This document shows, piece by piece, positions 2,600 to 62,124 of a stretch of DNA of 64,000 bases. This stretch comes from an uncultured Gammaproteobacteria bacterium (GTDB lineage: Bacteria; Patescibacteriota; Patescibacteriia; 2-01-FULL-39-33), in NCBI GenBank assembly GCA_964536975.1, contig CAZHYS010000002.1, positions 12,288 to 76,287 on the forward strand, in the 5' to 3' direction. A program made the position numbers and the translations under genes. Numbering within the stretch: the first letter of the stretch is position 1; every line of letters starts with the position of its first letter. The notes under the pieces were generated by a model that saw only the letters and a program-made list of their open reading frames with translations, was not told the DNA's origin and ran no database searches.

Positions 2600-2745
2600 A
2601 AAAAGTTTATAAAGTCGAATTAATTTGAGCCAAGAGTCCAAAGTCAGCCATGTTTTGACTTTATAAACGGTTCGGCTTCGCTCACCACAAGCTTTACGAA
2701 CTTTATAGACTTTCGACTCCATGGATTTTAGACTATTTTTCTACC
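2600..2745. repeat. Copy of the main interspersed intergenic repeat (R1), MITE-like with inverted arms
   Basis: The core is GGTTCGGCTTCGCTCACCACAAGC at 2670-2694. The arms GAGTCCAAAGTC and GACTTTCGACTC are mutual reverse complements. Confidence 0.5.
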
Positions 2746-4087
2746 AATCCCCGGTGATGGTTTGGCCGAGGGGGTGAACATCCAGTGTTCCTTGGGAAAC
2801 AGTAATTACGTTGCTCCATTTGTAATTCATTTTCAAGAATATGTCGCCATTGAAAATAGGCAGACGCTTGCCTTCAGAGATGACATAAACCGTGTTAATT
2901 CCCTTGACTTTTATCAATTCGCCATCCGGCAGAGTGACCGGATTGCCGGAACGATATTTGTCCAGCTCCGCCGAATCAACTGCTTTTACCGTCAATCCCT
3001 GAAAATTAAAATTTTGGATTTCTTTATTTACTACCAAATGGCGACGATTGCTATTGACATAATATATCTCCTTTGTTTTTTTGTCTTGTAATAACGCGCC
3101 GGCTGGATAGATTGTATATTTAGTGATATTTGGCCCGTTTTCATATTGCGACAGCTCGTCATCAGAGACGGAAATTACTTCATCCTCCATAAAGCCAAGT
3201 GATTTAAAAACTTCCGCGCTTTCAATTCTTCTCTTGGTGTCGTCAATAATCATAAAGATATCGCCGACCGGATTTTTTAGCAAAGAATAATTAAGATATT
3301 TTATCGGTACTCCGTCATCATAAGAATTCAAATCTTCTTGGGATACCTCTACTACTTTGTCTTCATCAAATCGCGAAGCAAAAACCGCTTGAGAAGCAAT
3401 CTCCCGTTTTTTACCATTTTCAATCAGATAAGTTTTGGAATCGTTGGCCAAGCGAAGCAGCGATCCATCCGGCCATTTTTTGCCGAAATATTTATTCCAG
3501 AGATTCCAAAACAGCTGATTACCGTGGATATGGGGAGTGTAATTATACAAACCCGCGGTCGCGGTGCTTTTGGGGGTTACTTTTACTCCGTCGATATTGT
3601 AGGTTTTTCCCGGTTGGTAGTTGAATTCCGTGATGTTGTCCATATAATAACGAGTCTGCGCCGCCGCGGAATTGACCTGTTTATAAAAACCTTGCCAGCG
3701 AGAATCGCATCCGCCGCCATCCGGACAACCATAGCCGGTCGCCCAGTCGTATTGGCTTTGTTTGGGTGACGAATCGGTCAATAGGCTCATTTCTTTCTGG
3801 ACCAAAACCATCAGATACTTGGGATTTATCAGCCAGCGTTGAGCCACCTCAAAAAAAGTCTGGGTAGCAGTCTTGAAATTTCCTTCTTTGTCAATAGTGA
3901 TATAACTTTTGAGCGTGCCTTCGCGTTTGGCCAAAAAACGATCAATGTCATCCAAAGTCATGCTGCGGTAGTTGTTCATTTCATTGTCGGAAATGAGATA
4001 ATCGGGATCAAATTCGGCGGCCAGCGATTGGCCGGCAAAAATAAAAAATAAAGCAACGGAAATAAGAAGGGGATAGCGTAATTTCAT
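2741..4087 (-). CDS. Secreted protein with four tandem ~45-aa repeats
   Basis: A signal peptide MKLRYPLLISVALFFIFAGQSLA is present. The repeats follow the pattern Y-x-I-x-x-G-K-R-R-x-I..V-S-x-x-x-L-x-x-Y. Confidence 0.55.
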   Translation of the reverse strand: MKLRYPLLISVALFFIFAGQSLAAEFDPDYLISDNEMNNYRSMTLDDIDRFLAKREGTLKSYITIDKEGNFKTATQTFFEVAQRWLINPKYLMVLVQKEMSLLTDSSPKQSQYDWATGYGCPDGGGCDSRWQGFYKQVNSAAAQTRYYMDNITEFNYQPGKTYNIDGVKVTPKSTATAGLYNYTPHIHGNQLFWNLWNKYFGKKWPDGSLLRLANDSKTYLIENGKKREIASQAVFASRFDEDKVVEVSQEDLNSYDDGVPIKYLNYSLLKNPVGDIFMIIDDTKRRIESAEVFKSLGFMEDEVISVSDDELSQYENGPNITKYTIYPAGALLQDKKTKEIYYVNSNRRHLVVNKEIQNFNFQGLTVKAVDSAELDKYRSGNPVTLPDGELIKVKGINTVYVISEGKRLPIFNGDIFLKMNYKWSNVITVSQGTLDVHPLGQTITGDW

Positions 4088-8676: not shown

Positions 8677-9076
8677 ATCCCGCCTCGGTCCTGGTTAGTT
8701 ATGGTTGTGTGCCGCCAACTCCCTTTCTTGAAGGTGACTTTGGAGCGGAATAGGAGTGGGAGGAGACACGTTGACCGAGGCGGGAAAGCAAAACTCCCGT
8801 TTTTCCCATCAGAAAGAAGTGAGCCATGGCCGCGGAGAGGTTTCTACTAGTACAGCCATCGCCCAAAAGGCAAGCGATCGCAGAACGCGCAGACAAGGAT
8901 GGGAAAGGGAGTAGTAAAGAACAGTTTATTGTTTGTAATGATAACACAATGCGTGGAAAAAGCAAATACTTTAACTTCTAATCGCGTATCTGCTTGTTGA
9001 TTACAGCTTTACAGATGGTTCGACTCCGCTCACCACAAGCTTTACAAACTTTATAGATTTTCGACTCCATGGGCTT

Positions 9077-9106
9077 TTGACTTTTTAGACTTATTTATGA
9101 TATAAT
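9077..9106 (+). promoter_or_regulatory. Putative promoter inside an R1 repeat: TTGACT, 18-nt spacer, TATAAT
   Basis: It lies about 45 nt upstream of the M23 peptidase gene. Confidence 0.4.
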
Positions 9107-9148: not shown

Positions 9149-10402
9149 ATGCTTGTCGGCAGGTTCTCTCAATTAAAATATCATATTTTAGCGATTTTAA
9201 TAATGCTGCTGATTGTTTTTAGCGGCGTTTTTTGCTTAGGAAAAATTATTTTGGCTGAAGAATCGGAGGACTCTAGCGGACCAAATCAAACAGTAATAGA
9301 CGACTTGAACCGTCAAATCCAGGAACAGCAAGCAAAAATCGATCAAATTGCCCAAAAAATAGAGCAGTATAAAGACAATATTAAAAACGCCCAAAACGAA
9401 GCGACTAGCCTGAACAACCAAATCTACATCCTCAATAATCAAATTGCCAAGGCCGAGCTTGACATCACCGCCAAAGAAGAGGAGATAAAAGCGGTAGAAT
9501 TGGAAATTTCCCAGGTAGAATTGGAAATAAAAGACAGTGAAACAAAAATAGAAAACGCCAAGGAAGATTTATCTGCTTTTGTCAGAAGACTTGATCAATA
9601 CGACCAAAAAAACTATCTGATGGTACTTTTAAGCAATAATTCTTTTTCGGAATTTTTTGACCAAATCAAATATCTGGAAGGCATTGAAGAAGAAATCCAG
9701 CAAACACTCAACCGAGTGCAAGAATTGGTGGAAAAATTAAACAAGCAAAAAAACGGTTTGAATCAAAAAAAGCAAGAATTATCCGATCTTTTAAATAAAT
9801 TGGAAGATGATAAATTAGCGCTGGAAAGCCAAAAACAGACCAAGCAATACCTGATCGGTCAGACCAGAAACTCGGAGAAAAAATACCAGAATATGGTGAC
9901 TGACTTAAAAGCCGAGCAGGCTGCCGCTAACAACGCCATCGCCAGCCTGGAAAATGCCCTGCGCGAAGAATTGAAAAAAACCGAGGGTCAAGAGACTTTG
10001 GAATCATTTGGCGATGTCTATATGGGTTGGCCGACTGCCAGCCATAGAATTACTGCTTATTTTCACGATCAGGACTATCCCTTCCGCAACTTATTTGAAC
10101 ATTCGGGGATAGATCTCGGCGTAGGAATGGGCACTCCGGTCAAAGCCGCCGAATCCGGCTACATTGCCAAAATAGGCCTCAACACCAAATGGTACGGCAA
10201 TTACATTATGATTATTCACAATAATAATTTGGCGACGTTATATGCCCATTTGAGCAGTGTCAGCGTTTCTGCCGACGAGTTTATCCTAAAAGGACAAGTC
10301 ATTGCCGCCAGTGGCAATACGGGATTTTCTACTGGCCCGCATCTGCATTTTGAAGTCCGTTCCAACGGTATTCCAGTGGATCCATTGGATTACCTGCCTT
10401 AA
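9149..10402 (+). CDS. M23 family metallopeptidase with N-terminal coiled coil (EnvC-like)
   Basis: A TM/signal segment, a long coiled coil, and the C-terminal HxxxD...HLHFEV M23 motifs. Confidence 0.8.
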   Translation: MLVGRFSQLKYHILAILIMLLIVFSGVFCLGKIILAEESEDSSGPNQTVIDDLNRQIQEQQAKIDQIAQKIEQYKDNIKNAQNEATSLNNQIYILNNQIAKAELDITAKEEEIKAVELEISQVELEIKDSETKIENAKEDLSAFVRRLDQYDQKNYLMVLLSNNSFSEFFDQIKYLEGIEEEIQQTLNRVQELVEKLNKQKNGLNQKKQELSDLLNKLEDDKLALESQKQTKQYLIGQTRNSEKKYQNMVTDLKAEQAAANNAIASLENALREELKKTEGQETLESFGDVYMGWPTASHRITAYFHDQDYPFRNLFEHSGIDLGVGMGTPVKAAESGYIAKIGLNTKWYGNYIMIIHNNNLATLYAHLSSVSVSADEFILKGQVIAASGNTGFSTGPHLHFEVRSNGIPVDPLDYLP

Positions 10403-10690
10403 AATAAATTTCAAATTTGAAATTTTAAATTTCAAAACAATGGTTCGGCTTCGCTCACCACAAGTTTTTAATTTTCAAATCCGCCGCCGCGGATTGTTAA
10501 ATTGTCTAATTGCTATATTGTTTTTGTCTCTATTATGGAGATAAAACCCGACAATTTTACAATTTAACAATGTAACAATTCTTTAATTTGACTTTTTGAC
10601 TTTATAGACTTTAAGAACTCCTGCCTACCGCCTGCCTGCCGGTAGGCAGGGCAGGCAGGTTCAACTTTACGGACTTTATAAACTAAACCA

Positions 10691-11119: not shown

Positions 11120-12202
11120 ATGTTCGGCCTCAAGCCAATCAAATTCCCGAGAGATGAAAACGCCCACCACAATATCATTGAATGGTGGTATTTTAACGGT
11201 CACTTGCGCGATAATAGCGGCCGTCCTTATGCTTTTATGGATTGCCTGTTTAAAGCCGACGTCAAAAAAGTCCGCATACCATTCCTGAAAAAGGTGCCTT
11301 ATCGCGACATTTATTTCGCCCATTCGCTGCTGTCAGATATCAAAAAGCAAGCCAACGAACGAGAGGTTCAATATCTAACCTTCATTTCCAAAGACAGTTT
11401 CAAGAAACCGGAACTTTTTGTTAATTATCGCAACCCCCTAGAATTGGCTGGCAGCTACACCAACTATGCCATTGAAAAAATCTCGCCGCAAAAATATCAT
11501 ATCAAGACACAGAACATGGATTTGATTTTGGACTCAACCAAAAAGCCTCTCCTTGAAGGAGGGGAGGGACATATCAAAGTCTGCGGCCGTAAAAGCTATT
11601 ATTATTCCCTGACCAATCTGAAAACCTCCGGCTGGATTAAGACGGGCGGAAAATATGTGGCGGTAAGCGGCAAATCCTGGATGGACCACCAATGGGCCGA
11701 TGTCAGCTACAGTAAAGACAAATGGACCTGGTTTTCCATCCAATTGAATAGCAATATTGAAATAATGGCTTGCGAATATAACGATGGCAACAGTCGGGCA
11801 TTGCTGGCGGATATTATTGACAAAAGCGGCCGGCAAAAAAACGTCTCTGATTTGATTATTGAACCCGGGGACAAATTTTTTTCTAGCCGATTAACCAAGG
11901 CGGACTATCCATTATCTTGGCAGATCAAAATTCCGTCACAAAAGATTTATCTTCGCGCCGAGGCATTGGCCAAAGACCAGGAAATGGTTTTTGGAACGAT
12001 AAATTACTGGGAGGGACCATTGAAAATATCCGGCAAAATCAAAGGAAAAACCGTTTCCGGCCAGGGCTTTGCCGAATTAGTCGGCTATCCGTCAAACTAC
12101 AATAATGTCTCTTTGGTAAAATCAAAAATCAAGCAGATAGTCGGTCGAGAGATAAGTAAATCAAGAAATATTTTTAAGAAAAGAAAGTTTTTTATTTTTT
12201 AA
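11120..12202 (+). CDS. CrtC/AttH-like lipocalin-domain protein
   Basis: The N-terminal FPRDENAHHNIIEWWYFNGHL motif typical of hydroxyneurosporene-synthase/AttH family. Confidence 0.45.
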   Translation: MFGLKPIKFPRDENAHHNIIEWWYFNGHLRDNSGRPYAFMDCLFKADVKKVRIPFLKKVPYRDIYFAHSLLSDIKKQANEREVQYLTFISKDSFKKPELFVNYRNPLELAGSYTNYAIEKISPQKYHIKTQNMDLILDSTKKPLLEGGEGHIKVCGRKSYYYSLTNLKTSGWIKTGGKYVAVSGKSWMDHQWADVSYSKDKWTWFSIQLNSNIEIMACEYNDGNSRALLADIIDKSGRQKNVSDLIIEPGDKFFSSRLTKADYPLSWQIKIPSQKIYLRAEALAKDQEMVFGTINYWEGPLKISGKIKGKTVSGQGFAELVGYPSNYNNVSLVKSKIKQIVGREISKSRNIFKKRKFFIF

Positions 12203-12324
12203 CGGGCAGGGATTAGTAATCAGCGATTAGCGTTTAGCCTTTAGCGATTTGCGCCCCAGGCGCATCCCCTCCATATAGACTTTACGAACTTTACTGACTT
12301 TATAGACTTTCGACTTTCCGGTTT

Positions 12325-13290
12325 TTACTTTTCGCCGCTATGAAACTTTTTGTGGACTTCCTTGAGATGGGGGTTGGTCAAGTGGGTGTAAATCTGAGTA
12401 GTAAGTATATTCTTGTGCCCCAAGAGTTCCTGAACACTGCGAAGATCGGCGCCCTGATTCAATAAATCTGTCGCGTAGCTATGGCGCAAGGTATGAGGCG
12501 TGGCGCTAATCGGCAAACCAGCCATGGCTGTGTATCGCTTGACCATCCTTTCAACTGATCTGATATTCAAACGATGTTCGTCTTTTTTGTCGGCGCTAGG
12601 ACGGTAATTGATAAATAGGGGAGGGCAGAGGTCATCTCTGGTCTGCAGATATTTGGCCAGCCAGCCCATTGACCGCCGGGAAAAATAAACCACTCGGCTG
12701 ACGCCGCCTTTACCAAAGATATTCAATTCGTAATCGGAAAATTTATTTTTCAACAAATCATTCTTATTGAATTGAGATATATTAAGCGACGTTAATTCTG
12801 ATACCCGCATCCCGGTAGAGAAGAGCGCCTCCAATATCGCTCGATCCCGCAAACCATCAACTGAAGATATGTCGGGCATCGCCAGCAGCTTTTCAATCTG
12901 TTCAAATTTCAAAAATTTTATTGCTTTGTCCTTGTCGGTTAATTTTGGCAATTTAACTTTATCTGCCGGCAGAGAAATAATATCTTTATCGGTAAAATAG
13001 CTCAAAAGATTACGTAAGGCGATCAAGTAATAGTTCTGGGTCGTCTTTTTGATATACTTGTCCTTATTATCCTTTTTTCGCGACAAATATAGACGATAAT
13101 CCCAAACATGGTCTGGGGTGAGCTCATGAGGCCTAAGATCGCTTAAATCGCGAATTTTGAGCCAATTGATGAACATCTTAAGGAAGTTATGATAATTGCG
13201 GGTAGAAGCCGGACTAAGGCCTTTTTCTACCTCACAGTAAGCCAGAAAATCAGGGATGTGCTTTATTATGGAAATAGTAGATTTTTTCAT
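12325..13290 (-). CDS. Tyrosine site-specific recombinase, XerC/XerD family
   Basis: C-terminal catalytic motifs HTLRHSYAT...LLGH...IYTHL. Confidence 0.8.
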   Translation of the reverse strand: MKKSTISIIKHIPDFLAYCEVEKGLSPASTRNYHNFLKMFINWLKIRDLSDLRPHELTPDHVWDYRLYLSRKKDNKDKYIKKTTQNYYLIALRNLLSYFTDKDIISLPADKVKLPKLTDKDKAIKFLKFEQIEKLLAMPDISSVDGLRDRAILEALFSTGMRVSELTSLNISQFNKNDLLKNKFSDYELNIFGKGGVSRVVYFSRRSMGWLAKYLQTRDDLCPPLFINYRPSADKKDEHRLNIRSVERMVKRYTAMAGLPISATPHTLRHSYATDLLNQGADLRSVQELLGHKNILTTQIYTHLTNPHLKEVHKKFHSGEK

Positions 13291-18730: not shown

Positions 18731-18875
18731 AACGCCAAGAAAGTCAACCCCGAAAAAACCGGAATTTAATCCGGTTTTTTGTGGTAATAGGCCTAAATAT
18801 ACCCCTCCCTAACCCTCCCCTTCAAACAAGGGGAGGGAACGGCCAATTGTAAATTGGGTTGTTAATTTTTATAGT

Positions 18876-19169: not shown

Positions 19170-19349
19170 GGGAGTATGTTGATTAATTTCTAATTTTTAA
19201 TTTAAAATTTTAAAACAATTTTTAATGGTTCAGCTTCGTTCACCACAAGTTTTCGATTTAAAATTTACAATGAATTTTCAATTATCAATTTTTAAAATTA
19301 CTGATTACCGCCTTACAGACTTTTGACTTTATGGACTTTAGACTTTTGA

Positions 19350-21776
19350 CTACCTTACTTTTACATTATATTCCTTTTTTAGCTTGTCAACAACTTTATC
19401 GTGGACTTTTTGCGCCTCGGCGAGCTCCAAGGTTTTCTCTTCGTCGCGATAAACCACCCGAATCGCCAAAGCTTTTTTGCCTTCGGGAATGTCTTTGCCT
19501 CTAAAGACAGACAAAAACCTTGCCTCTCTGATGAGCGGATCAACACTCATGGCAGTCTCAACGACATTGCCGTACAACACCTCATCCCCGATCTCCATAG
19601 ACAAGTCCAATTCTATGCCGGGAAACTTCGGCAATGACCGGTAAGTCGGCGAGGGCTTGGCCAGTTTGGCCAGTTTTTCAAAATCAATATCAATTATGCC
19701 GACATCAGATTTAATACCAAATAGATGAAGTGCTTCGCGATCAACAATCCCGATCCGGCCAACACTCTCTTTTCCTTCGCTCGCCAAAATAGAAAAAACG
19801 CTGCCCGGTTGCCAGATCCGACTGCTCTCGCCATCAGCCGCCGCCAGAGAAAAATCCTTGATGTTTAATTTTTCCAACAGAACAGACAAGGCGCCCTTAG
19901 CCGCCAAAAATGCCTCCTCCCCTCCCCGGCCGGCAACAGCCAAACAGAGATTGGTAATTTCATCGGGCAGATCGTTTGGTTTATTCAAATACACCTTGCT
20001 CAATTCAAAAATGCTCATTTCCTTGTAACTGTTCTCATTGTCGGCAATCGCTTGCAAAATTCCGGGCACCAAAGACGTCCGCATATACTCAAAATCAACA
20101 TTGAGCGGATTGGATATTTTGACGTGGTCTTCCACTGACAAGCCGCAATTCTTGATTAATTTTTCCGAAATAAAGCTATAATTATAGTTTTCCGAAAAAC
20201 CCAAGCCGACGATGATGTCTTTGACCTTATCTTCCAGTTGAAAAGGAGAGACGGCGGCAACATCAACGGGAATTTCGCCAGCCGGCAATATCGCCGGCAG
20301 ATTGTGATAGCCGTAGACGCGAGCGATTTCTTCAATCAAATCATGCGGTCCCTCAATGTCACGATCGCGCCAATAAGGCACCTTCACTTTGATCTGTTTG
20401 TCCCCGGCCGCTCTAAATCCCAGATTATCCAAAATTTCTTTTATTCGCGCCGACTTTATTTCTACGCCCAATATTCGCCGAACATCTTCCAGCGCCAGTG
20501 TCAACTCTTTGGCTTTGAATTTGTAATCTTTTTCGTCAAAAATCTTGGACGCGACTTTCCCGCCCGCCAATTCCACTACTAGTTCCACCGCTCGCAATAA
20601 AGCAGGGGTGGTTCCCTCAGGATTAAGACCCTTTTCAAAAAGATTAGAGCTGTCTGAATGCAAATTCAGGACTCTGGCAGTCTTTCTAATGGAAACAGGA
20701 TCAAAGGTGGCCGCCTCCAAAACAATCGTTTTAGTGCCATCTGACACCGCGGATAGCTCTCCGCCCATGATACCGGCGACTGCCGCCGGATTCTTGCCAT
20801 CGGCAATAACCAGATTGCTACTGCCCAATTCATAAGTCTTTCCATCCAGCGCCAAAATTTTTTCACCCGATTTTGCAAGACGGACAATTATCTCCGCCTT
20901 ATTCTCCCTCCCATTTACAAGGGGAGGGACAGGGTGGGGTAATAATTTTTCATAATCAAAAACATGCATCGGCTGACCGAATTCCAACAGAATATAATTG
21001 GTGATATCTACCAGGTTATTAATCGGCCGCAAACCCGACGCCAATAGTCGCTGTTGCAGCCATAGCGGCGAAACATCCACTTTCACGCCGGTCATCACAA
21101 TCGCCTGATAGCGCGGGCAGAGTTTTGGTTCTTTGACTGTGACCTTCAGAGACGGGGCATGCCCGGTCTCTACGGAAGCAATTCTTAGATTCGGCTTTGG
21201 TTCGCGGTATAAAAACTTTTCGCCCATAATCGCCGCCGCCTCACGCGCCAACCCGATGACACTCATGGCATCCGGCCGATTGGAAGTAACCTCAATATCA
21301 AAAATATAATCCTCCACTGGCATCACTTTTTCAAACGGCAGACCGACTTTGAGGTAATCGGGCATAATATAAATACCGGTATGATCGTCGCCGACACCGA
21401 GCTCGCGCTGGCTGCACATCATCCCAAAGCTATCCACCCCGCGGAGTTTGGCTTCTTTCACTTCCATCTCCCCCACTCTGCCGCCGATTAACACCACCGG
21501 CACTTTCTGCCCGGCTTTGATATTCGGCGCGCCGCAAACTATCTGGAGCGGCTCTTTCTCGCCGATATCAACTTTGCAGACATGTAGCTTGTCGGCGTTC
21601 GGATGATTGTTTATTTCCAAAATCTCGCCCACAACCACCTTGGAAAATTTCGCTTCATTGTGATGAATAAAATCAACCGTCGGTCCGCTTTGCGACAGCG
21701 CTTTGGCAAAATCCGCGGCCGATTTTTTCGTCGCGATATGCTCTTTGAGCCAGTTGTAGGATATGTTGAGGTTCAT
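19350..21776 (-). CDS. pheT: Phenylalanyl-tRNA synthetase beta subunit
   Basis: 808 aa with a tRNA-binding N-domain HPNADKLHVCKVDIG. Confidence 0.9.
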   Translation of the reverse strand: MNLNISYNWLKEHIATKKSAADFAKALSQSGPTVDFIHHNEAKFSKVVVGEILEINNHPNADKLHVCKVDIGEKEPLQIVCGAPNIKAGQKVPVVLIGGRVGEMEVKEAKLRGVDSFGMMCSQRELGVGDDHTGIYIMPDYLKVGLPFEKVMPVEDYIFDIEVTSNRPDAMSVIGLAREAAAIMGEKFLYREPKPNLRIASVETGHAPSLKVTVKEPKLCPRYQAIVMTGVKVDVSPLWLQQRLLASGLRPINNLVDITNYILLEFGQPMHVFDYEKLLPHPVPPLVNGRENKAEIIVRLAKSGEKILALDGKTYELGSSNLVIADGKNPAAVAGIMGGELSAVSDGTKTIVLEAATFDPVSIRKTARVLNLHSDSSNLFEKGLNPEGTTPALLRAVELVVELAGGKVASKIFDEKDYKFKAKELTLALEDVRRILGVEIKSARIKEILDNLGFRAAGDKQIKVKVPYWRDRDIEGPHDLIEEIARVYGYHNLPAILPAGEIPVDVAAVSPFQLEDKVKDIIVGLGFSENYNYSFISEKLIKNCGLSVEDHVKISNPLNVDFEYMRTSLVPGILQAIADNENSYKEMSIFELSKVYLNKPNDLPDEITNLCLAVAGRGGEEAFLAAKGALSVLLEKLNIKDFSLAAADGESSRIWQPGSVFSILASEGKESVGRIGIVDREALHLFGIKSDVGIIDIDFEKLAKLAKPSPTYRSLPKFPGIELDLSMEIGDEVLYGNVVETAMSVDPLIREARFLSVFRGKDIPEGKKALAIRVVYRDEEKTLELAEAQKVHDKVVDKLKKEYNVKVR

Positions 21777-23060: not shown

Positions 23061-23441
23061 TCAGTACGGCCGGCGAGCGGACAGAAAGAAAAATTCCAAA
23101 ATAGCGACGCCAACCACTAGCAGAATCGCATTCCACCAGGTCAAAAGATCTTTGCCTTGCAAAAACAAAACCGTCGCCACCAGTAGGGCGAAAAAAAACG
23201 ACTGGCGAAAAGAAGTGCCGACAATCTTGTATTCCAAAGAAAACTTATTGAATAGTTTGCGAAAACCGAAGCTAAGTAGAAAAAAAGTCCCCAGTAGCGC
23301 GAAAAATAAACTCAAAAAAAATAACAAAAAACCCAAAAAATTCGTCTCAAACGGATTGACGGCAAAAAGCACCATTGCCCAGGCGGTCCAACACGCCAGG
23401 GTCGCTATCAAAACAACGATGATGAGCTGCTTGAGAGTCAT
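23061..23441 (-). CDS. Hypothetical membrane protein
   Basis: Hydrophobic segments only. Confidence 0.4.
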   Translation of the reverse strand: MTLKQLIIVVLIATLACWTAWAMVLFAVNPFETNFLGFLLFFLSLFFALLGTFFLLSFGFRKLFNKFSLEYKIVGTSFRQSFFFALLVATVLFLQGKDLLTWWNAILLVVGVAILEFFFLSARRPY

Positions 23442-24183
23442 AAAAAAATAATTCTACTATTGATATTATACCACAAAAATTATCAGCAAAAAAATATCCG
23501 TAATTTGAAATCCCGTCCAGTCCCGAGAGATCGGGAGCGGGACGGGATCCGGAGAAAGTTGATCGCTCTGCGAAAACTTCACTTATAAAAAAGAAAAAAG
23601 ATTTCTTGATTGTGAATGTTGGAAGCAAAACGATATATTCAACTCCTCTCCAAAGATTATAACAATGAAAAAAAATAAAGACAATAAATATTTTTTGTCA
23701 AGAGGAAAAAAATAAAATATTGTGATCGGCAATCAGTAATAATTGTAGAGACGCGATTCATCGCGTCTGGAAGTAATTAGTAACGAGTAACCGGTAACGG
23801 AACTCGTAATAGTGTGTCATCCCGACTGAGGACGCCCCAAGCGGACGAGTGGAGCCTGCCTGCCGGCAGGCAGGAGTCCGTAAAGTCATAATGTCATAAA
23901 GTCCAAGGTCAATCACATTTGACTTTATAGACTTTATGGACTTTTGACTTTTAACCAAGCTGCTCAAACATAAAAGCGGCGCTGACAAGTCAGAACCGCT
24001 TTTATGTTTTTGAAATTTAACACTGCCATTTTGGCAGCTATGGGAAAGAAAAAAAATATTTGAAAGAGCCCTTTCCCGCTTAAACCGGCAATTCAAATTG
24101 CTGGCTTGAGCGGAATGAGGAGATAGATAGTCAAAGAGCGAATCTCTTTTTTCTCTATCTCCTCAAGTTGTTCGGAGGGGGTC

Positions 24184-24369
24184 TCATGTCTCTACGGCCT
24201 CCCCTAGGCGGGAACAGCTATGCCGCTGTTGGCGGATTTGCGCGAACGCTTTGGCCGCGCAAACCGGACAATAGCCGTGGCTTATTTCTTCCCCTTCCAG
24301 GGAAACCACGGGAATAATCCAAGCACTACCTTCTCGAATCCGTTTGCATGCGCAGCATTGTACTACCAT
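24184..24369 (-). CDS. Small Cys4 zinc-ribbon protein
   Basis: 61 aa with CCACKR...CPVC. An AAAGGAG SD lies upstream. Confidence 0.4.
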   Translation of the reverse strand: MVVQCCACKRIREGSAWIIPVVSLEGEEISHGYCPVCAAKAFAQIRQQRHSCSRLGEAVET

Positions 24370-25931: not shown

Positions 25932-26116
25932 AACTCAAAAAATCCCCTTAAACAAAAATCCACAATAAAACAGATAAAAATTAAAATAAATTTTCAATAA
26001 TTTAATTTTAAAATTACTAATTATAGACTTTACGAATGGTTCGGCTTCGCTCACCACAAGCTTTATGGACTTTTGACTTTACTGACTTTCGACTTTTAAC
26101 TGTTTAATCTTCCATG

Positions 26117-29100: not shown

Positions 29101-29164
29101 GATTAAGATTATTTAGTTTTTCCATCATTGCTTTTATCTTAACAAAACCATCAGTTTGCTTCAA
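26117..29164 (-). CDS. UvrD/PcrA-family helicase fused to a C-terminal PD-(D/E)XK nuclease with a Cys cluster
   Basis: Walker A AGAGTGKT. The C-terminus carries IDRIDE..RIVDYKTG and C...CKYCDFYNIC. The true start may be MMEKLNN at ~29128. Confidence 0.8.
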   Translation of the reverse strand: MKQTDGFVKIKAMMEKLNNLNQAQQEAVTHDKGPLLIVAGAGTGKTAVITRRIAHLITDGKCATDEILALTFTDKAAGEMEERVDQLLPYGYVDLWISTFHSFAERILHDHGLEIGLPHDFKLLNTTQQWLLVRQNLDKFNLDYYRPLGNPTKFIHALIRHFSRAKDENVSAKDYLAYVEELKLNADSAEFIRTVVDDEQLEKMDKAELKEVLAQEITKQEEIANAYHVYQQLLLDNNALDFGDLINYCLKLFNERKNILARYRRQFKYILVDEFQDTNYAQYELVKLLAAPSNNITVVGDDDQAIYKFRGASISNILQFKDDYPEAKEIFLNQNYRSRQNILDLSYDFICQNNPYRLEVKLAGDSQKLSKKLISATSDSGEILHLHGRRLADEVKLVISKITELYNQSQETNWSDFAILVRANSGADDFAYALEQAGIPYQFFASKGLYGKKIILDLLAYFKLLDDYHEGPAMYRLLSLPLWGLSHQDIVNLNYFASRKSQSLYETCRQAAALNDVSEAGKKKIAEILAILDRHCQLTRQNKNTTEIIQAFLADSGYLQTLTTKDTRENRQQLNYLNQFYKKIQEFEKENADKSLKNFLAFMDLETEAGEEGTLAQNWEEESPDSVKVMTIHAAKGLEFKYVFLPNLVDKRFPTIARGEAIDLPAKLVKEIVPEGDIHLQEERRLFYVAMTRAKTGLYFSSADDYGGARKKRLSRFLAELEERGLKLAKGAEKSEEDLSPAKKERPAGADNGAAYLPPSRFSFTQLKAFENCPYQYRFAHILKVPARGKPQFSFGRTMHLTLQRFFQEVNRRKNSRQPDLFGQSAGQPEEVKWEDLRKIYQESFIDDWYPDKKTKEDFFKKGEDILKVFFQKYSAEKPEVKNLEYPFSLRIGEGGRYIIRGVIDRIDEAGGKIRIVDYKTGNAKDKLSAEDKEQLLIYQIAARRVMKEEAAELVFYYLDNNREVSFLGNDKELGKVEDKIIATIEEIKKGDFPPRPSELCKYCDFYNICEFRNT

Positions 29165-35116: not shown

Positions 35117-35524
35117 TCCAAACAAGCTGGATGACTGCCCGGGCTCAACCTAAAAAATTAAGCGCGGGAGGAAAGTCCGAACACCCTTTCCGAGCAATCG
35201 GAATGTCATGGCAATGGCTAACGGCCATCCGTTCCGCCGCGAGACGGAATGAGGACCAGTTCCACAGAGACAATACTATCCCGAATCTTTCGGGACAAAG
35301 GTGAAAAGTGTGAAGGTGTTTTAAATTGGGTCAGAGATATCTCCTCAACTTAAAGCTGCTTCACTCGGCCTCTGGCAACAGAGTGCCCGTGGTAAACTCT
35401 GCCTGGTGCAACCCCAAATACAGTCGGGGGCTTGAGCCGGCCAGTAATGACCGGCCCAGATAGATAGTCATCGCTTTGCTCTTATGGCAAAGAACAGAAT
35501 TCGGCTTACAAGCTTGTTGGGACG
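35117..35524 (+). ncRNA. rnpB: RNase P RNA, bacterial type A
   Basis: The P4 strands GGAAAGTCCGAAC and ACAGAATTCGGCTTA are present. The segments GTGCCCGTGGTAAACTCTGCC and GCTTGAGCCGGCC align to E. coli M1 RNA. The P1 ends are complementary and a terminator follows at 35524-35572. Confidence 0.85.
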
Positions 35525-37834: not shown

Positions 37835-38015
37835 ATTTCCGTCGTCAAGGTATTATTTCAAATATGAACAAATCCAAACGAAAAAATATTCTCAAAAACA
37901 CCTGGGCGATCATCGTCGTTATCATGATCCTGTCGATGGTCTTTTTTACAGTCATGCCGTTTTTCTATTAGACCGGCAAGTCGTCCAAAAAATCACAATA
38001 ATCCGCCGCGGCGGA

Positions 38016-41113: not shown

Positions 41114-41228
41114 GATTATCTCCTCACTCGCTCAATTGCGAGTTTCTGTTTTCCCTCTCATCCGAGGGCAGAACCACGGCTACCACAGTAGCAGCCACAG
41201 CCAAAAGATTTCAATAAAGTCCTCCCGT

Positions 41229-41440: not shown

Positions 41441-41480
41441 TTTTGTTTAAAATAAGGAAAAAAAATAAAAAAATTGTTAA

Positions 41481-41693
41481 ATTGTCCGCCGCGGCGGATT
41501 GTCAAATCGTCATTAACTCCCGAATTTAGAGTCAACACCCAACAATATAACAATATGACAATTTAACAATTGCCGTTTTAAAATTGAAGCATTGAAAACT
41601 TGTGGTGAGCGAAGCCGAACCATTCATTGAAAATTTAAAATTATAAATTAGAAATTTTATTAGAAATTAGACATTAGAAATTAGAAATTTTTC
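41481..41693. repeat. Left inverted repeat flanking murJ; perfect or near-perfect reverse complement of 43576-43789
   Basis: I reverse-complemented one arm and compared it base-for-base by eye with the other over ~213 bp. Each arm contains the R4 palindrome, the R1 core, and TAGAAAT-type heptamer repeats. Confidence 0.7.
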
Positions 41694-41723
41694 TAACTCC
41701 TAATCCCTAAACGCCAATCGCTG

Positions 41724-43445: not shown

Positions 43446-43575
43446 TGTCTGGCTGTATAAAAACCGTTAACTTAATTTTGATTTGGCGATTAGAGCGACC
43501 ACCACACCGACAAAAATAATGCCAAAAATTACGTAGGTCATGGGCTAGGAATTAGGAGTTAGGGATTAGGGATTG

Positions 43576-43789
43576 GAAAAATTTCTAATTTCTAATGTCT
43601 AATTTCTAATAAAATTTCTAATTTATAATTTTAAATTTTCAATGAATGGTTCGGCTTCGCTCACCACAAGTTTTCAATGCTTCAATTTTAAAACGGCAAT
43701 TGTTAAATTGTCATATTGTTATATTGTTGGGTGTTGACTCTAAATTCGGGAGTTAATGACGATTTGACAATCCGCCGCGGCGGACAATT
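43576..43789. repeat. Right inverted repeat flanking murJ
   Basis: See the left arm at 41481-41693. Confidence 0.7.
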
Positions 43790-43827
43790 AGTCAATTTGA
43801 CTTTACAGACTTTATAAACTTTTGACT

Positions 43828-45888
43828 TTATGAACTCATTCTCACATCCACGATCTTCGCGCCTTTGCCTTTGACGCCGACCATCACCGGATTGAAATCC
43901 ATTTCCTTCACCTGCGGATAGCGCTGGGCAAAATCGCCAGTCTTTACCAATATCTCCGCCACTGCCTCAATATCCAGCGGTTTTTGGCCGCGCGCGCCGG
44001 CAAACATTTTGGCAATTTTTAGATCACCGATCATCGCTCTGGCGGCCGCTTTATCAAACGGCGCGATTCTAAACGCGACATCCTTGAATATCTCGGCGTA
44101 AATCCCGCCCGCGCCGACCATTACCAGCGGGCCGAATTGCGCGTCGCGCTTCATACCGACAATTACCTCAAACCCTTTGACCATCTCCCCCACCAAAAAC
44201 CCGTCCAGCGCCGGAATCTTTTTTTTCATCTCGGCGATGGCCGCTGTCATCTCCTCAGTGTTTTTTATGTTTAATTTCACTCCGCCGACATCAGACTTGT
44301 GAGTGATTTTTTCCGACACGATCTTTATCGCCACCGGCCAGCCGATTTTTTCCGCCGCGCCAATCGCCGCTTTTCCATCGGCAGCAAACTCGGCTCGGTG
44401 CAAATTGAATCCCAAAGGCAATAATAATTTTCTAGCGTCAATTTCCGTCAACACCGCTTGATTGAAAATCTTATTTTCCGACGGTTTGATTTTTGATTTT
44501 GCGATTGTTAGCGGCGCCATCCTCATCCGGCTATACTGCCACATCCGGCCGAGCGTTTCCACTGCCTGATTGGGAAAATTATATACCGGCAAAGAATATT
44601 TTTGAAAAATATCATAATGGCCGGTGATCTTGGCTTCACCCATGAAACACGCCAATACCGTCTTGGTCGTCTTTTTGGCCAGGCGGCCGACAATCTCCGC
44701 GGTCTTGGCCACATCCGTCATCTTCTGCGGGGTTAATGCCACTATGACCGCGTCAACATTTTTGTCCTTCAAAGCCTCGCCCAGCGCCCATTCATAGCGA
44801 TCAGCGCCGGCATCGCCCAGAACATCAATGGGATTTTTGACGCTGGCCGCCGGGGGCAATTTTGATTTTATTTTTTTGGCCGCGGACGCGGACAACTCCG
44901 CCAATTCCAATCCGTGCGCCGACAGCAAATCCGTCAGCAATACGCCCGGCCCGCCGGCGTTGGTGATAATAGCCACGCGCTTGCCCTTTGGCAGCGCCTG
45001 CCAAGAAAAGCCTTTGGCCAAATTGAAAAAATCTTCCAAATCCCTCGCCTCAATCAATCCTGATTGGGCGAAGGCCGTACTATAAGCTTGCGCTGAACCG
45101 GCCAATGAGCCAGTATGCGAGGACACTGCCTGGCTGCCCTTCTCTGTTTTGCCGGCTTTTAGCACAACCACTGGCTTTTGGCCGGAGACGCGACTCGCCG
45201 TTTCCATGAACCGCCGGCCATCCCTGATATCTTCAAGGTAAGATATGATCACTTTGACTTTATCGTCGCTTCCGCAATATTCCAATAAATCATTTTCGTC
45301 AATGTCTAATTTGTTTCCCATACTGACAAAATAAGCCAAGCCGACTTTTTGCGCCTCCGCCAAGTCCAAAAATGCCGTACCCAAAGCGCCCGATTGGGAA
45401 AGAAAGGCGACATTGCCCCGCGTCGGCGTGCCGGGCGCGAAAGAAGCGTTGACCGGCAAAAGAGCGGAAATAAAGCCAAGACAGTTTGGTCCCAAAATTC
45501 TGATCTGATATTTTCCGGCAATTTTTTTGATTTCATTTTCCAGCGCCACCCCCGCTTCGCCTAATTCGCGGAAGCCGGCGGAAATAATGACGATGTTTTG
45601 GCATTTCTTCTTGCCACATTCTTCCACTGCTTCGGCGACAAATTGAGCCGGAATGACGATTATCGCCAAATCCACCGGCCCAGGCACTTTGGCAATGGAC
45701 GGATAAGCCGAAAGACCGGCAATGTTTTTTTCATCCAAATTGATCGGATAGATTTTGCCGGCAAAACTGTTTTTGAGATTGACCACAATATCATTGCCGA
45801 CCTTGCCCGGTTTGGCCGACGCGCCAATGACCGCGACTGATTTGGGATTGAAAAAAGGTTTGAGATTGGTTTTATTTTTAATTGGCAT
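43828..45888 (-). CDS. ADP-forming acetyl-CoA synthetase (NDP-forming acyl-CoA synthetase, fused alpha/beta)
   Basis: A CoA-binding N-domain VAVIGASAKPGKVGN and an ATP-grasp C-domain. Confidence 0.8.
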   Translation of the reverse strand: MPIKNKTNLKPFFNPKSVAVIGASAKPGKVGNDIVVNLKNSFAGKIYPINLDEKNIAGLSAYPSIAKVPGPVDLAIIVIPAQFVAEAVEECGKKKCQNIVIISAGFRELGEAGVALENEIKKIAGKYQIRILGPNCLGFISALLPVNASFAPGTPTRGNVAFLSQSGALGTAFLDLAEAQKVGLAYFVSMGNKLDIDENDLLEYCGSDDKVKVIISYLEDIRDGRRFMETASRVSGQKPVVVLKAGKTEKGSQAVSSHTGSLAGSAQAYSTAFAQSGLIEARDLEDFFNLAKGFSWQALPKGKRVAIITNAGGPGVLLTDLLSAHGLELAELSASAAKKIKSKLPPAASVKNPIDVLGDAGADRYEWALGEALKDKNVDAVIVALTPQKMTDVAKTAEIVGRLAKKTTKTVLACFMGEAKITGHYDIFQKYSLPVYNFPNQAVETLGRMWQYSRMRMAPLTIAKSKIKPSENKIFNQAVLTEIDARKLLLPLGFNLHRAEFAADGKAAIGAAEKIGWPVAIKIVSEKITHKSDVGGVKLNIKNTEEMTAAIAEMKKKIPALDGFLVGEMVKGFEVIVGMKRDAQFGPLVMVGAGGIYAEIFKDVAFRIAPFDKAAARAMIGDLKIAKMFAGARGQKPLDIEAVAEILVKTGDFAQRYPQVKEMDFNPVMVGVKGKGAKIVDVRMSS

Positions 45889-46041
45889 ACCGCATTGACT
45901 TTATAAATGGTTCGACTTCGCTCACCACAAGCTTTACGAACTTTATGACTTTTGACTTTATGAACTATCTCCATTCTACCACAAATTTTAAGATAAAAAA
46001 ACGCCCGCGCTTCTCTTCCGTGAGAAACGCGGGGTAATTGT

Positions 46042-47128: not shown

Positions 47129-47203
47129 GGCTTATTCCTCCTTCTTAGTACGCGCCAGCGGGCTGCCCAATGCAGCCATAGCCAGAAAATACCAATTGTA
47201 GCG

Positions 47204-53905: not shown

Positions 53906-54086
53906 AGTTTTGCTTAGTTTATTATTTAAATTTATTAACGACCTTTAAATTAGTCAGGAGTCTAAAGTCATAGAGTCTATAAAGTCAAAATGCAACTGAC
54001 TTTGGACTCCATGGCTTTCGACTTTATGGACTTTACAGACTTTTGACTTTATAGACTTTAGGCTTGTTTATATTATAACACACTTT

Positions 54087-61367: not shown

Positions 61368-61425
61368 GCCTTTTATTCCCTCCCCTTGTCTGAAGGGGAG
61401 GGATAGGGAGGGGTCTAAAACCCAA

Positions 61426-62124
61426 TTATTTATTAAAAAATTTACCCAACTTCTCCACTCTTATCGCGTCCTTCGCCTCAAACTCCCCCACTCTGCTTCG
61501 TTCCAAATCAGACAAATAACCGCCGACACCCAGCTCCTGGCCAATATCGCGAGCCAAAGCGCGAATGTATGTCCCCTTGCCACAAATGACTTTTATCCGC
61601 AAATCAGGATATTTATATTTTAAAATTTTTATTTCCCTGATTTCCACCGGTCGAGGCAAAAGTTCCACCTCCTTGCCGGCGCGAGCGGATTTATACGCTC
61701 GCCTCCCCTTCACTTTTATCGCGCTAAACTGCGGCGGAATCTGATTGATCTGCCCGACGAATTGTTTTATTATTTTTTCAATTTTAATTTTACTGACGAT
61801 TCGACTCCGCTCACCACAAGCTTTACGGACTTTTGACTTTATGGACTTTATAGACTTAATTCCTTCTTCATCATCAGTCGTACTCGTCATGCCCAATCTA
61901 ATGTCAGCAATGTATTCTTTTTCCTGGCCGACGATTTCCGACAGTTGCCTGGTTGCTTCGCGGCCGACGCCAATCACCAAAACGCCGCTGGCCAAAGGAT
62001 CCAGAGTGCCGGCATGACCGACTTTTTTGACTCCGGACAATTTTCTCACTCTGGCGACAATATCAAAAGAGGTCGGCCCCTTCGGCTTGTAAATACCAAA
62101 GATATTTTTAGTTTTGACATCCAT
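61426..62124 (-). CDS. truB: tRNA pseudouridine(55) synthase carrying an in-frame repeat insertion
   Basis: KPKGPTSFDIV...HAGTLDPLASGVL...TTDD. The start at 62124 (MDVKTK) is preferred over the upstream ATG at 62160 in the ORF track. Confidence 0.85.
   Translation of the reverse strand: MDVKTKNIFGIYKPKGPTSFDIVARVRKLSGVKKVGHAGTLDPLASGVLVIGVGREATRQLSEIVGQEKEYIADIRLGMTSTTDDEEGIKSIKSIKSKVRKACGERSRIVSKIKIEKIIKQFVGQINQIPPQFSAIKVKGRRAYKSARAGKEVELLPRPVEIREIKILKYKYPDLRIKVICGKGTYIRALARDIGQELGVGGYLSDLERSRVGEFEAKDAIRVEKLGKFFNK

What the first reader, a model, noticed from the sequence alone, without database searches (positions are those of the whole stretch)
10441..10610. Interspersed ~100-215-bp intergenic repeat family (R1) with 10-bp-phased GACTTTAT arrays
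The core TGGTTCG(G/A)CT(T/C)CGCTCACCACAAG recurs at ~2670, 9018, 10441, 19235, 26041, 43646, 45901 and 61806 on the plus strand and at 41596 on the minus strand. Most copies are followed or flanked by arrays of decamers (TTTATAGACT, TTTACGGACT, TTTATGGACT) at one-helical-turn spacing. Further arrays occur at 12265-12310, 19310-19345, 23905-23950, 43795-43830, 45930-45965 and 54000-54060. Several arrays contain TTGACT -35-like boxes, for example the 9077-9106 promoter. They often abut gene ends directly. Copies show MITE-like inverted arms. This RpoA lacks an alpha-CTD but carries an AT-hook, so phased A/T-tract arrays could be architectural promoter elements.
Basis: partly seen in the sequence, partly recalled or inferred. 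Interest (0 to 1): 0.6.

Follow-up and report, generated by a model that had tools for sequence, protein, structure and literature searches.

The report
Tiny 24-base mobile repeat family
The repeats are real, but their conserved heart is a 24-base mini-insertion found almost unchanged in bacteria of more than ten phyla, sitting in short tandem-repeat arrays, at hairpin tips and even in frame inside essential genes, and it does not look like a promoter-shaping element.

Summary
The core TGGTTCGRCTYCGCTCACCACAAG is real: 9 copies in the window against 0 expected. The GACTTT arrays are also real, but their units are spaced 7 and 9 nt apart, never 10. Only 1 of about 11 arrays forms a good sigma-70 promoter. 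One copy is not intergenic: it lies in frame inside truB.

The same 23-mer occurs exactly in more than 113 species genomes from at least 10 phyla, with unrelated flanks. It sits at unit boundaries of 7-9-nt tandem arrays, at the apex of palindromes, nested inside copies of itself, or in frame in conserved enzymes such as PurT, GAPDH and an nSTAND1 NTPase.

A filled site compared with an empty one shows a clean 24-nt insertion with no target duplication. Copies show no tail of decayed versions. No transposase lies nearby, the core has no stable fold of its own, and neither Rfam nor the searchable literature matches it.

Best reading: R1 is nested selfish DNA. A very small mobile repeat, like the cyanobacterial "small dispersed repeats", is embedded in lineage-specific microsatellite arrays, and larger modules are copied by recombination. 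The machinery that moves it is unknown.

The promoter-architecture idea is largely unsupported, although RpoA does lack an alpha-CTD and does carry an RGRP motif.

The parts
2668..2691 (+). 24-nt core copy (CGGTTCGGCTTCGCTCACCACAAG), between two minus-strand genes
   Evidence: 1 mismatch; context
2620..2745 (+). Short-form R1 module: inverted AAAGTC/GACTTT arms, core near the apex, GACTCCATGG submotif; abuts the stop codon of gene 2741-4087(-)
   Evidence: D2, D3: 86-89% identical to 9007-9086; fold z = -2.9
9016..9039 (+). 24-nt core copy (centre ACTCCG)
   Evidence: 0 mismatches
9007..9106 (+). Short-form R1 module whose last GACTTT unit supplies the -35 box of the only good promoter found in an array (TTGACT-18-TATAAT), upstream of the M23 peptidase gene 9149-10402
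10441..10464 (+). 24-nt core copy (the reported one)
10465..10666 (+). 202-bp block directly 3' of the core, absent in a 98.5-99.6% identical strain (L122). It holds the GC palindrome TCCGCCGCCGCGGA (10480-10493), ATTGTTAA/ACAATTTA arrays, a GACTTT array (10587-10613) and the palindrome CCTGCC...GGCAGG (10620-10659)
10406..10436 (+). AAATTTC heptamer array on the 5' side of the core
19226..19249 (+). 24-nt core copy (2 mismatches)
19183..19351 (+). Long-form module: TAATTTC/AATTTTC arrays, core, GACTTT array abutting the stop codon of pheT 19350-21776(-)
26037..26060 (+). 24-nt core copy
26028..26107 (+). Short-form module abutting the stop codon of the AddA-like helicase-nuclease gene 26117-29164(-)
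41599..41622 (-). 24-nt core copy, the only minus-strand copy
41471..41710 (-). Left arm of a 240-nt inverted duplication of the long-form module (about 215 nt identical), flanking murJ
   Evidence: I1, 98%
43559..43798 (+). Right arm of the same inverted duplication; contains core 43647-43670
43799..43829 (+). GACTTT array abutting the stop codon of gene 43828-45888(-)
45908..45931 (+). 24-nt core copy (centre ACTTCG)
45899..45978 (+). Short-form module, 19 nt from the annotated start of gene 43828-45888(-)
61797..61820 (+). 24-nt core copy inside truB, read on the other strand as ..A-CGERSRI..; exactly 8 extra codons relative to the nearest orthologue
61788..61867 (+). Array plus core inside the truB CDS (61426-62124, -), translated as IKSIKSIKSKVRKACGERSRIV
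12265..12320 (+). GACTTT/AACTTT array without a core, between convergent gene ends (11120-12202 + and Xer-like recombinase 12325-13290 -)
23881..23953 (+). Core-less inverted AAAGTC/GACTTT arrays (hairpin, z = -3.9)
53964..54075 (+). Core-less inverted AAAGTC/GACTTT arrays with GACTCCATGG (hairpin, z = -4.25)

Best explanation
R1 is layered selfish DNA, not a regulatory device.

Layer 1: AT-rich 7-9-nt microsatellite arrays fill much of this Patescibacteria-type genome's non-coding DNA. GACTTT(N1-3) is one of at least 10 unit types.

Layer 2: a 24-nt very small mobile repeat, GGTTCG-N6-CTCACCACAAG-Y, here mostly with the centre GCTTCG. It is added precisely, without target duplication, after (A/T)T. 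It lands preferentially where DNA can become single-stranded or extruded: unit boundaries of tandem arrays, tips of palindromes, and the centre of its own copies. It lands occasionally in coding DNA, where only copies in tolerable reading frames survive.

Layer 3: array-plus-core modules of 80 to 240 nt, and a 202-bp block, are duplicated, inverted or lost by recombination between copies.

Shown: the family itself, the clean 24-nt presence/absence, the lack of target duplication, the target contexts, the cross-phylum spread, the within-genome homogeneity and the absence of decayed copies.

Inferred: that a trans-acting machinery, encoded elsewhere or on a broad-host-range vector, copies the element through a single-stranded DNA or RNA intermediate.

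Effects on the host are by-products: one donated -35 box, stop codons supplied to gene ends, and an 8-residue loop added to TruB.
For: Family and enrichment:
- 9 copies against 0 expected.
- 8 of 9 copies lie in the 22% of the window that is non-coding (P = 4e-5).
- Removing the 24 nt restores a continuous array in phase.

Cross-phylum spread:
- Nothing is conserved beyond -2 (A or T), -1 (T, 110 of 114) and +1 (T or C).

Clean insertion:
- In an nSTAND1 NTPase the empty site is GGGAT|ATATC and the filled site is GAGAT[GGTTCGACTTCGCTCACCACAAGC]ATTTC. That is 24 nt with no duplication, and 40 homologues are empty.
- PurT carries exactly +8 aa relative to E. coli PurT.
- truB of this window carries exactly +8 codons relative to its nearest orthologue.

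Target context:
- Direct repeats of 6 nt or more span the core in 28 of 120 copies (null 4.9%). Inverted repeats of 6 nt or more span it in 22 of 120 (null 4.8%).
- Core-in-core nesting occurs at CTT^CGC.

Reading frames:
- In-CDS sense copies fall 36:4:1 among the three frames, mostly GS(T/A)xLTTS. Every frame of the sense strand is open, so this points to selection on translated copies.

Turnover and local amplification:
- The window holds 6 exact copies, 1 with 1 mismatch and 2 with 2 mismatches, and none with 3-6.
- 6 of 9 window copies share the centre GCTTCG, against 19% of copies in other genomes (P = 0.0025).

Module dynamics:
- A 240-nt inverted duplication (215 nt identical) flanks murJ.
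- A 202-bp block is present or absent between strains exactly at the core's 3' end.

No cis-encoded enzyme: no gene family recurs next to the core in 119 loci.
Against: - No mobilising enzyme, donor copy or intermediate was identified, so 'mobile' rests on presence/absence and on the pattern of copies.
- The absence of decayed copies and the extreme cross-phylum identity could equally mean strong purifying selection for an unknown function.
- The three-taxon comparison at the nSTAND1 site could not be rooted (16, 19 and 17 informative sites). Neither excision nor repeated insertion is therefore shown.
- The cross-phylum set was found by exact pattern, so conservation of the arms is partly ascertainment.
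- The 8:1 strand bias in the window is unexplained (P = 0.04, or 0.07 if the inverted duplicate pair is counted once).
Confidence: 0.6

Rival explanations
1. One reading: the A/T-rich arrays, with the core as a spacer, are architectural promoter elements. They would be bound by the AT-hook of an RpoA that lacks the alpha-CTD and would act like UP elements.
For: - RpoA has no alpha-CTD Pfam hit and ends in KKRGRPKK.
- The 9077-9106 promoter takes its -35 box from an array.
- The long-form module lies 45-285 nt upstream of the 12/12 promoter at 41427(-).
Against: - Unit spacing is 7 or 9 nt, so the T-tracts are not in helical phase.
- Only 1 of about 11 arrays gives a promoter match of 10 or more out of 12, and the strongest promoters have no GACTTT array.
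- Arrays lie between convergent genes, right after stop codons and inside truB, and they keep one strand irrespective of gene direction.
- The core occurs in phyla not examined for RpoA and inside coding sequences.
Confidence: 0.08
2. The 24-mer is a functional cis element kept by selection. It would be a binding site for a widely conserved protein or RNA, for example in replication, repair, chromosome organisation or RNA processing, and the arrays are merely where it is tolerated.
For: - It is near-invariant across phyla, with variation concentrated in a 6-nt centre between constant arms.
- There is no tail of decayed copies.
- The right arm almost never occurs without the left arm (251 of 268).
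- The window shows a strand bias of 8:1.
Against: - Copies are inserted in frame into unrelated enzymes and are absent from close orthologues.
- Orientation relative to genes is inconsistent.
- The core has no stable fold and no Rfam match.
- It nests inside itself and forms tandem runs.
- The arms were fixed by the search patterns, so their constancy is partly ascertainment.
Confidence: 0.17
3. The 24-mer is a scar or a recombination site of a larger element: two constant ends joined across a variable junction, or an att-like site into which cassettes such as the 202-bp block are inserted.
For: - Constant arms flank 65 different central hexamers in 126 copies.
- The 202-bp block starts exactly at the core's 3' end.
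- In L068 a core is split by a 27-nt hairpin.
- A Xer-like tyrosine recombinase gene lies at 12325-13290.
Against: - Solo arms are rare: at most 5 of 268 right arms lack a left arm.
- No full-length element or recurrent recombinase lies near the cores.
- The most common centres (RCTNCG) are themselves strongly preferred, which is unlike random junctions.
Confidence: 0.1
4. It is an uptake-signal-like sequence, or another product of molecular drive, that accumulates by point substitution and biased recombination.
For: - It is over-represented.
- It shows reading-frame bias inside genes, as seen for USS/DUS (own knowledge).
- There is no tail of decayed copies.
Against: Copies are insertions of 24 nt, not substitutions. 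The identical sequence occurs in unrelated phyla.
Confidence: 0.03
5. It is an assembly, library or contamination artefact.
For: Short-read contigs often break at the copies.
Against: - Identical copies appear in independent assemblies of several runs.
- Copies are present in an isolate genome and in complete genomes.
- Inside genes the copies are in frame.
- Variants are specific to each genome.
Confidence: 0.01

Closest known systems
[quoted passage not shown] 2008, Genome Res 18:1484. The paper is not held here. Its content is recalled from my own knowledge, and it is cited in PMC5861425.
   Same: - Unit size in the 21-27 nt range.
- Dispersed, with no transposase of its own.
- Embedded in tandem heptamer-type repeats and hairpin structures.
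- Mobility inferred from filled against empty orthologous sites.
- Mechanism unknown.
   Different: - PMC5861425 states that SDRs were not found outside the Nostocaceae. This core is in a Patescibacteria-type genome and in at least 10 other phyla with the same sequence.
- It inserts in frame in conserved enzymes.
- Sequence identity to SDR1-8 could not be checked. Only a partial 22-nt match was found in Nostocales, on Anabaena sp. 90 pANA02.
REP / REPIN elements mobilised by RAYT (Y1 HUH) transposases (PMC3116915)
   Same: Short (about 20-35 nt), abundant, mostly extragenic, no target duplication, maintained without decay, acted on in trans.
   Different: - REPs are stable palindromes specific to a species and flank their own RAYT gene.
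- This core has no stable hairpin, no inverted doublet organisation and no RAYT nearby, and it is shared across phyla.
MITEs (for example Nezha, Chunjie, Correia; PMC3184786)
   Same: Non-autonomous dispersed repeats, shown by filled against empty sites, sometimes fused to reading frames.
   Different: MITEs are 100-400 bp with terminal inverted repeats and target-site duplications matching a parent IS. Here there are 24 nt, no TIR, no TSD and no parent IS.
Rickettsia palindromic elements (RPE), 'selfish DNA in protein-coding genes' (own knowledge; several papers mention them)
   Same: Selfish repeats that insert in frame into conserved genes and add peptide segments that are tolerated.
   Different: RPEs are about 100-150 bp, palindromic and confined to Rickettsia.
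GC clusters of yeast mitochondrial DNA (own knowledge)
   Same: Short GC-rich units scattered in AT-rich spacers, occasionally in frame inside a gene, with an unknown mobilising activity.
   Different: They are organellar and palindromic, have AT-rich target duplications, and are not shared across distant lineages.
STRR heptamer arrays of cyanobacteria and other 6-9-nt bacterial SSRs (abstract of PMC4692102)
   Same: The flanking arrays are tandem 7-9-nt units in non-coding DNA, as in this window and beside the core in other phyla.
   Different: These describe only the arrays, not the 24-nt core. The unit sequences differ between lineages.

Membership tests
SDR-like very small mobile repeats | Dispersed unit of about 21-27 nt, many near-identical copies per genome | tested here: met
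   24 nt; 9 copies in 64 kb, 6 of them exact; insertion length is exactly 24 nt
SDR-like very small mobile repeats | Embedded in tandem heptamer-type repeats or hairpin structures (feature recalled from Elhai et al. 2008; paper not held) | tested here: met
   The core lies at unit boundaries of 7-9-nt arrays and at palindrome tips, 23% and 18% of copies against about 5% in the null
SDR-like very small mobile repeats | Mobility: filled against empty orthologous sites | tested here: met
   nSTAND1 site L093/L104 against L132; truB against L125; PurT against 1kj8
SDR-like very small mobile repeats | Sequence belongs to one of the described families SDR1-8 / lineage Nostocaceae | not testable with these tools
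   PMC2527708 is not held. No paper holds the sequence. The only hit in Nostocales is a partial 22-nt match on an Anabaena plasmid.
MITE | Terminal inverted repeats | tested here: not met
   The core has none. Inverted array arms occur at only 3 of about 11 loci.
MITE | Target-site duplication | tested here: not met
   The empty/filled alignment shows none. Direct repeats beside the core are the pre-existing array continuing in phase.
MITE | Parent IS with matching ends and a transposase | tested here: not met
   No transposase beside any copy in the window and no recurrent neighbouring gene in 119 loci. Whole genomes were not searched.
REP/REPIN-RAYT | Stable imperfect palindrome (hairpin) | tested here: not met
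   Minimum free energy -1 to -4.5 kcal/mol, z between -0.7 and +0.4
REP/REPIN-RAYT | Cognate RAYT gene flanked by the repeats | tested here: inconclusive
   None among the ORFs scanned in the window or near the cores elsewhere. The rest of the genome is not available.
UP-element-like or curved-DNA promoter architecture | A/T tracts in helical phase (about 10-11 nt) | tested here: not met
   Spacing is 7, 8 or 9 nt only
UP-element-like or curved-DNA promoter architecture | Position just upstream of a -35/-10 promoter that faces a gene | tested here: not met
   1 of about 11 arrays (9077+). The others lie at 3' ends, between convergent genes or inside truB.
Intrinsic terminator | GC-rich hairpin followed by a T run, in the orientation of the gene | tested here: not met
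   No core or array appears among the terminator-like sites, and the core has no stable stem
Uptake signal sequences (USS/DUS) | Copies arise by substitution within existing sequence | tested here: not met
   Genic copies add exactly 8 codons
Known RNA families (Rfam 15), tRNA, tmRNA | Match to a covariance model, or overlap with a tRNA gene | tested here: not met
   No hit on any copy at E up to 5-10. No core out of about 240 overlaps a tRNA, and 2 lie within 30 nt of one.

The most novel reading that the evidence does not exclude
The 24-mer, with constant arms GGTTCG and CTCACCACAAG around a free 6-nt centre, is the smallest known broadly distributed mobile element. It would be copied with nucleotide precision and without target duplication into hairpin tips, microsatellite arrays and reading frames in more than ten bacterial phyla. 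That would imply an unrecognised and widely shared insertion machinery, possibly based on single-stranded DNA or reverse transcription and carried by a broad-host-range vector. The SDRs of Nostoc would then be one local manifestation of the same process.
Probability: 0.35. Interest if true: 0.85.

Novelty: new member of a known kind. Interest (0 to 1): 0.7.

Why it matters
If the core is what it appears to be, a 24-nt unit is being written precisely into genomes across much of the bacterial tree, by something nobody has identified.

- Finding that activity would explain a long-noticed but ignored class of 'junk' repeats and spurious small ORFs in environmental genomes.
- It would also explain why short-read assemblies of such genomes break where they do.
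- It could offer a natural mechanism for scarless short insertions.

Practical consequences already follow:
- The element adds 8-residue loops to essential enzymes (TruB here; PurT, GAPDH, LysRS-like and MurD-like proteins elsewhere).
- It supplies stop codons and occasionally -35 boxes.
- It gives presence/absence markers between close strains.

For this window specifically, the arrays should not be annotated as promoter elements.

Tried and rejected
- Transposon flanked by inverted copies. The 240-nt inverted repeat flanks murJ, an ordinary lipid II flippase, not a transposase.
- tRNA or tmRNA origin. GGTTCGACTCC resembles a T arm and ..ACCA a 3' end, but Rfam finds nothing even on 46 nt. 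No core overlaps a tRNA, and the commonest variants break the canonical A58 and C61 positions.
- Stable hairpin or REP. Folds are no better than shuffles.
- Associated enzyme. All-against-all clustering of 2,123 ORFs from 119 loci gave no family in more than 8 loci. Small ORFs in the repeat-rich stretches of the window have no Pfam hit.
- Phage or plasmid vector. Only 6 of 2.9 million viral contigs carry the core, in the same kinds of context as in cellular genomes. There were no phage records and one partial plasmid hit.
- Strain polymorphism for the core itself in this species. Logan contigs end inside the repeats, so only the 202-bp block polymorphism could be seen. Two look-ups found no record.
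- Rooting the nSTAND1 filled/empty pattern to show excision or re-insertion: unresolved.
- Target-site-duplication cycles as the origin of the arrays. Rejected because genic insertions show no duplication.
- Literature. The sequence and its halves are in no searchable paper. General searches on repeats gave nothing specific. One search was wasted on the ambiguous term 'SDR4'.

Full report
THE OBSERVATION

The motif TGGTTCGRCTYCGCTCACCACAAG occurs nine times in the window with at most two mismatches. Eight copies are on the + strand (2668, 9016, 10441, 19226, 26037, 43647, 45908, 61797) and one is on the - strand (41599). None is expected in dinucleotide-preserving shuffles.

The spacing between successive units is 7 nt (nine times), 9 nt (eleven times) or 8 nt (once), and never 10. 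The 'one-helical-turn' description is therefore wrong.

Tandem Repeats Finder shows that GACTTT arrays are only one of at least ten kinds of 7-, 8- and 9-nt array in the non-coding DNA of this window: AAATTTC, AATTTCT, ACAATTTA, ATTACAG, TAGGAGT, GTTTAGC and others.

The copies fall into a short form of about 80 nt (2659-2738 and 9007-9086 are 86-89% identical) and a long form. Independent assemblies from other sequencing runs reproduce them exactly.

THE GENOMIC SETTING

The window carries ordinary housekeeping genes of a Patescibacteria-type genome: GluRS, PheT, MurJ, an AddA-like helicase-nuclease, TruB, ribosomal proteins, RpoA and RNase P RNA. The closest TruB relatives are named Patescibacteria, Parcubacteria or Falkowbacteria by their sources.

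No transposase lies next to any copy. A 240-nt inverted duplication of the long form, with about 215 nt identical, flanks murJ.

Eight of nine cores lie in the 22% of the window not covered by ORFs of 120 aa or more (P = 4e-5).

The ninth copy, 61797 with its array, lies inside truB and in frame, read as IKSIKSIKSKVRK-ACGERSRI-VSK. Solved TruB structures and 29 Patescibacteria homologues show that this loop is variable in length. The nearest orthologue (71% identity, locus L125) is exactly eight codons shorter at the position of the core and carries no GACTTT array.

THE CORE IS NOT SPECIFIC TO THIS ORGANISM

The genomes include:
- Omnitrophota, Bacteroidota, Planctomycetota, Chloroflexota, Acidobacteriota and Fibrobacter;
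- Zixibacteria, Ignavibacteria, Margulisbacteria and Methylomirabilis;
- Brocadia (a complete genome);
- many Patescibacteria;
- a cultured Marinilabiliaceae isolate.

The flanks are unrelated between genomes. Only position -1 (T in 110 of 114), position -2 (A 71, T 26) and position +1 (T 60, C 40) show a preference.

A metagenome scan with the six central bases left free found 65 different centres in 126 copies: ACTTCG 19, ACTACG 9, GCTTCG 7 and many others. The family is therefore best written as GGTTCG-N6-CTCACCACAAG.

The right arm almost never occurs without the left arm (251 of 268).

Six of the nine window copies share the centre GCTTCG, which makes up 19% of copies in other genomes (P = 0.0025). 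This points to amplification or homogenisation within the genome.

WHERE THE CORE SITS

Across 120 copies from other genomes, 28 have a direct repeat of 6 nt or more spanning the core (null 4.9%) and 22 have an inverted repeat of 6 nt or more (null 4.8%).

- The direct cases are tandem arrays, mostly of heptamers (TTATCAA, TTTGGGA, TTCGTAA, TTTGCGA, TAGGCAG). These arrays continue in phase across the core, exactly as the GACTTT arrays do here.
- The inverted cases are palindromes or known hairpin repeats with the core at their exact centre. Examples are GGGCGAGGCA|core|TGCCTCGCCC and TTCCCGCCT|core|TCGCGGGAA.
- Cores also nest inside cores and inside related units, at CTT^CGC.

CORES INSIDE GENES

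- In long reading frames, the sense-strand copies fall 36:4:1 among the three frames, mostly as GS(T/A)xLTTS, although every frame of the sense strand is open.
- In PurT the copy is an exact 8-residue insertion relative to E. coli PurT.
- In GAPDH it lies in a 12-residue insertion.
- In an nSTAND1 NTPase, two Bacteroidota species carry it, while a 91%-identical protein and 40 further homologues lack it. The DNA alignment shows 24 added bases and no target duplication.
- Rooting that comparison with an outgroup failed (16, 19 and 17 informative sites), so neither excision nor parallel insertion can be claimed.

WHAT THE CORE IS NOT

- It has no stable fold as DNA or RNA (z between -0.7 and +0.4).
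- It matches no Rfam family, even in a 46-nt search.
- It does not overlap tRNA genes.
- It is nearly absent from phage and plasmid collections. The one partial plasmid hit is again an in-frame genic copy, in Anabaena sp. 90.
- No gene family recurs near it.
- There is no tail of decayed copies: the window has six exact copies, one with one mismatch, two with two mismatches, and none with three to six.

MODULE DYNAMICS IN THIS SPECIES

A strain 98.5-99.6% identical to the window (L122) has core 10441 followed directly by the CTTTACGG array. It lacks the 202 bp at 10465-10666.

That block is itself a mosaic of arrays and two GC-rich mini-palindromes. These palindromes recur elsewhere in the window (TCCGCCGCGGCGGA seven times; CCTGCC..GGCAGG four times) and likewise interrupt arrays.

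THE PROMOTER HYPOTHESIS

The premise is correct. RpoA has only the N-terminal domains and ends in an acidic tail with KKRGRPKK.

The rest does not hold:
- Only one array (9077+) yields a good sigma-70 match, and the best promoters in the window lie elsewhere.
- The arrays are not helically phased.
- They lie at 3' gene ends, between convergent genes and inside truB, and they keep one strand regardless of gene direction.

I therefore regard promoter effects as incidental.

BEST EXPLANATION

R1 is nested selfish DNA. A 24-nt very small mobile repeat is embedded in lineage-specific microsatellite arrays, and larger modules are shuffled by recombination.

Shown: the precise insertion, the target contexts, the spread across phyla and the within-genome homogeneity.

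Inferred: a trans-acting copying machinery and a single-stranded intermediate.

The main rival is that the 24-mer is a selected binding site of unknown function. That would also explain its invariance and the missing decay tail. It fits poorly with in-frame insertions that are absent from close orthologues, with self-nesting, and with orientation that ignores genes.

COMPARISON WITH WHAT IS KNOWN

The closest described phenomenon is the small dispersed repeats (SDR, 21-27 nt) of Nostoc punctiforme and relatives (Elhai et al. 2008). As I recall, these are embedded in tandem heptamer repeats and hairpins and were inferred to be mobile. The paper is not held here.

A later paper says that SDRs were not found outside the Nostocaceae (PMC5861425). 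Neither the core nor its halves occur in any searchable paper.

I file the element as a new member of that kind. Its host range is far wider, and it has the added feature of in-frame genic insertion. MITE, REP/RAYT, terminator, UP-element and uptake-signal memberships each fail at least one defining test (see the membership table).

Noticed in passing
window 62076-62308: A perfect 97-bp tandem triplication. It repeats the first 48 nt of truB plus 49 nt upstream, so the gene start is present three times.
   Followed up: partly
window 10480, 18655, 29747, 29785, 38002, 41485, 43771: A second dispersed mini-element, the 14-nt GC palindrome TCCGCCGCGGCGGA (one variant is TCCGCCGCCGCGGA). It is embedded in AT-rich arrays in the same way as the core.
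   Followed up: partly
window 10620-10659, 23855-23874, 40058-40077, 40249-40270: CCTGCCTGCCGGCAGGCAGG-type palindromes. The one at 10620 interrupts a GACTTT array, which continues in phase on the other side.
   Followed up: partly
window 41337-41428 and 47347-47438 (minus strand): Two 12/12 sigma-70 promoters with an upstream TG (41427-, 47437-). Each is followed by about 60 nt that are 78% conserved between the two sites, possibly two copies of a small gene or sRNA.
   Followed up: no
window 31161-32042 (-): RpoA has no alpha-CTD Pfam hit. It ends in an acidic tail with KKRGRPKK, an AT-hook-like RGRP motif.
   Followed up: partly
window 41471-41710 / 43559-43798: A 240-nt inverted duplication (about 215 nt identical) brackets murJ (41724-43445). 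It could allow inversion of the gene.
   Followed up: partly
window 23440-24220, 39800-41720, 47130-48150: Long repeat-rich stretches with no Pfam-recognisable ORFs, sharing several further repeat families (TGTCATCCCGACTGA..., GTAACGAGTAACCGGTAACGG...). A core-like unit with CCC/GGG stems lies near 47281-47310 on the minus strand.
   Followed up: no
window 18798-18839 and 61376-61417: The hairpin CCCTCCCCTT..AAGGGGAGGG occurs twice in inverted orientation. Similar sequences appear in loci from other phyla, for example L049.
   Followed up: no
TruB homologues P0003, P0005, P0009, P0014, P0044, P0069 and others (alignment A2): The loop after DDEEG in Patescibacteria TruB varies by up to about 25 residues. 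It often reads like translated repeats (FPISNFQF, NYELRITNYE, PPARGGEERSA), which suggests a hot spot for repeat insertion.
   Followed up: partly
L183 844-921; L027, L036, L100: Cores also occur as tandem runs, with three copies at a 27-nt period read as GSTTLTTRS x3, or head to tail with 1-8 nt between them.
   Followed up: no
window 37946-38031 (-): A sub-threshold match to GA-cis RNA (27.6 bits against a gathering score of 34.7).
   Followed up: no
window 35119-35524 (+): Bacterial RNase P RNA class A, 178.8 bits.
   Followed up: no
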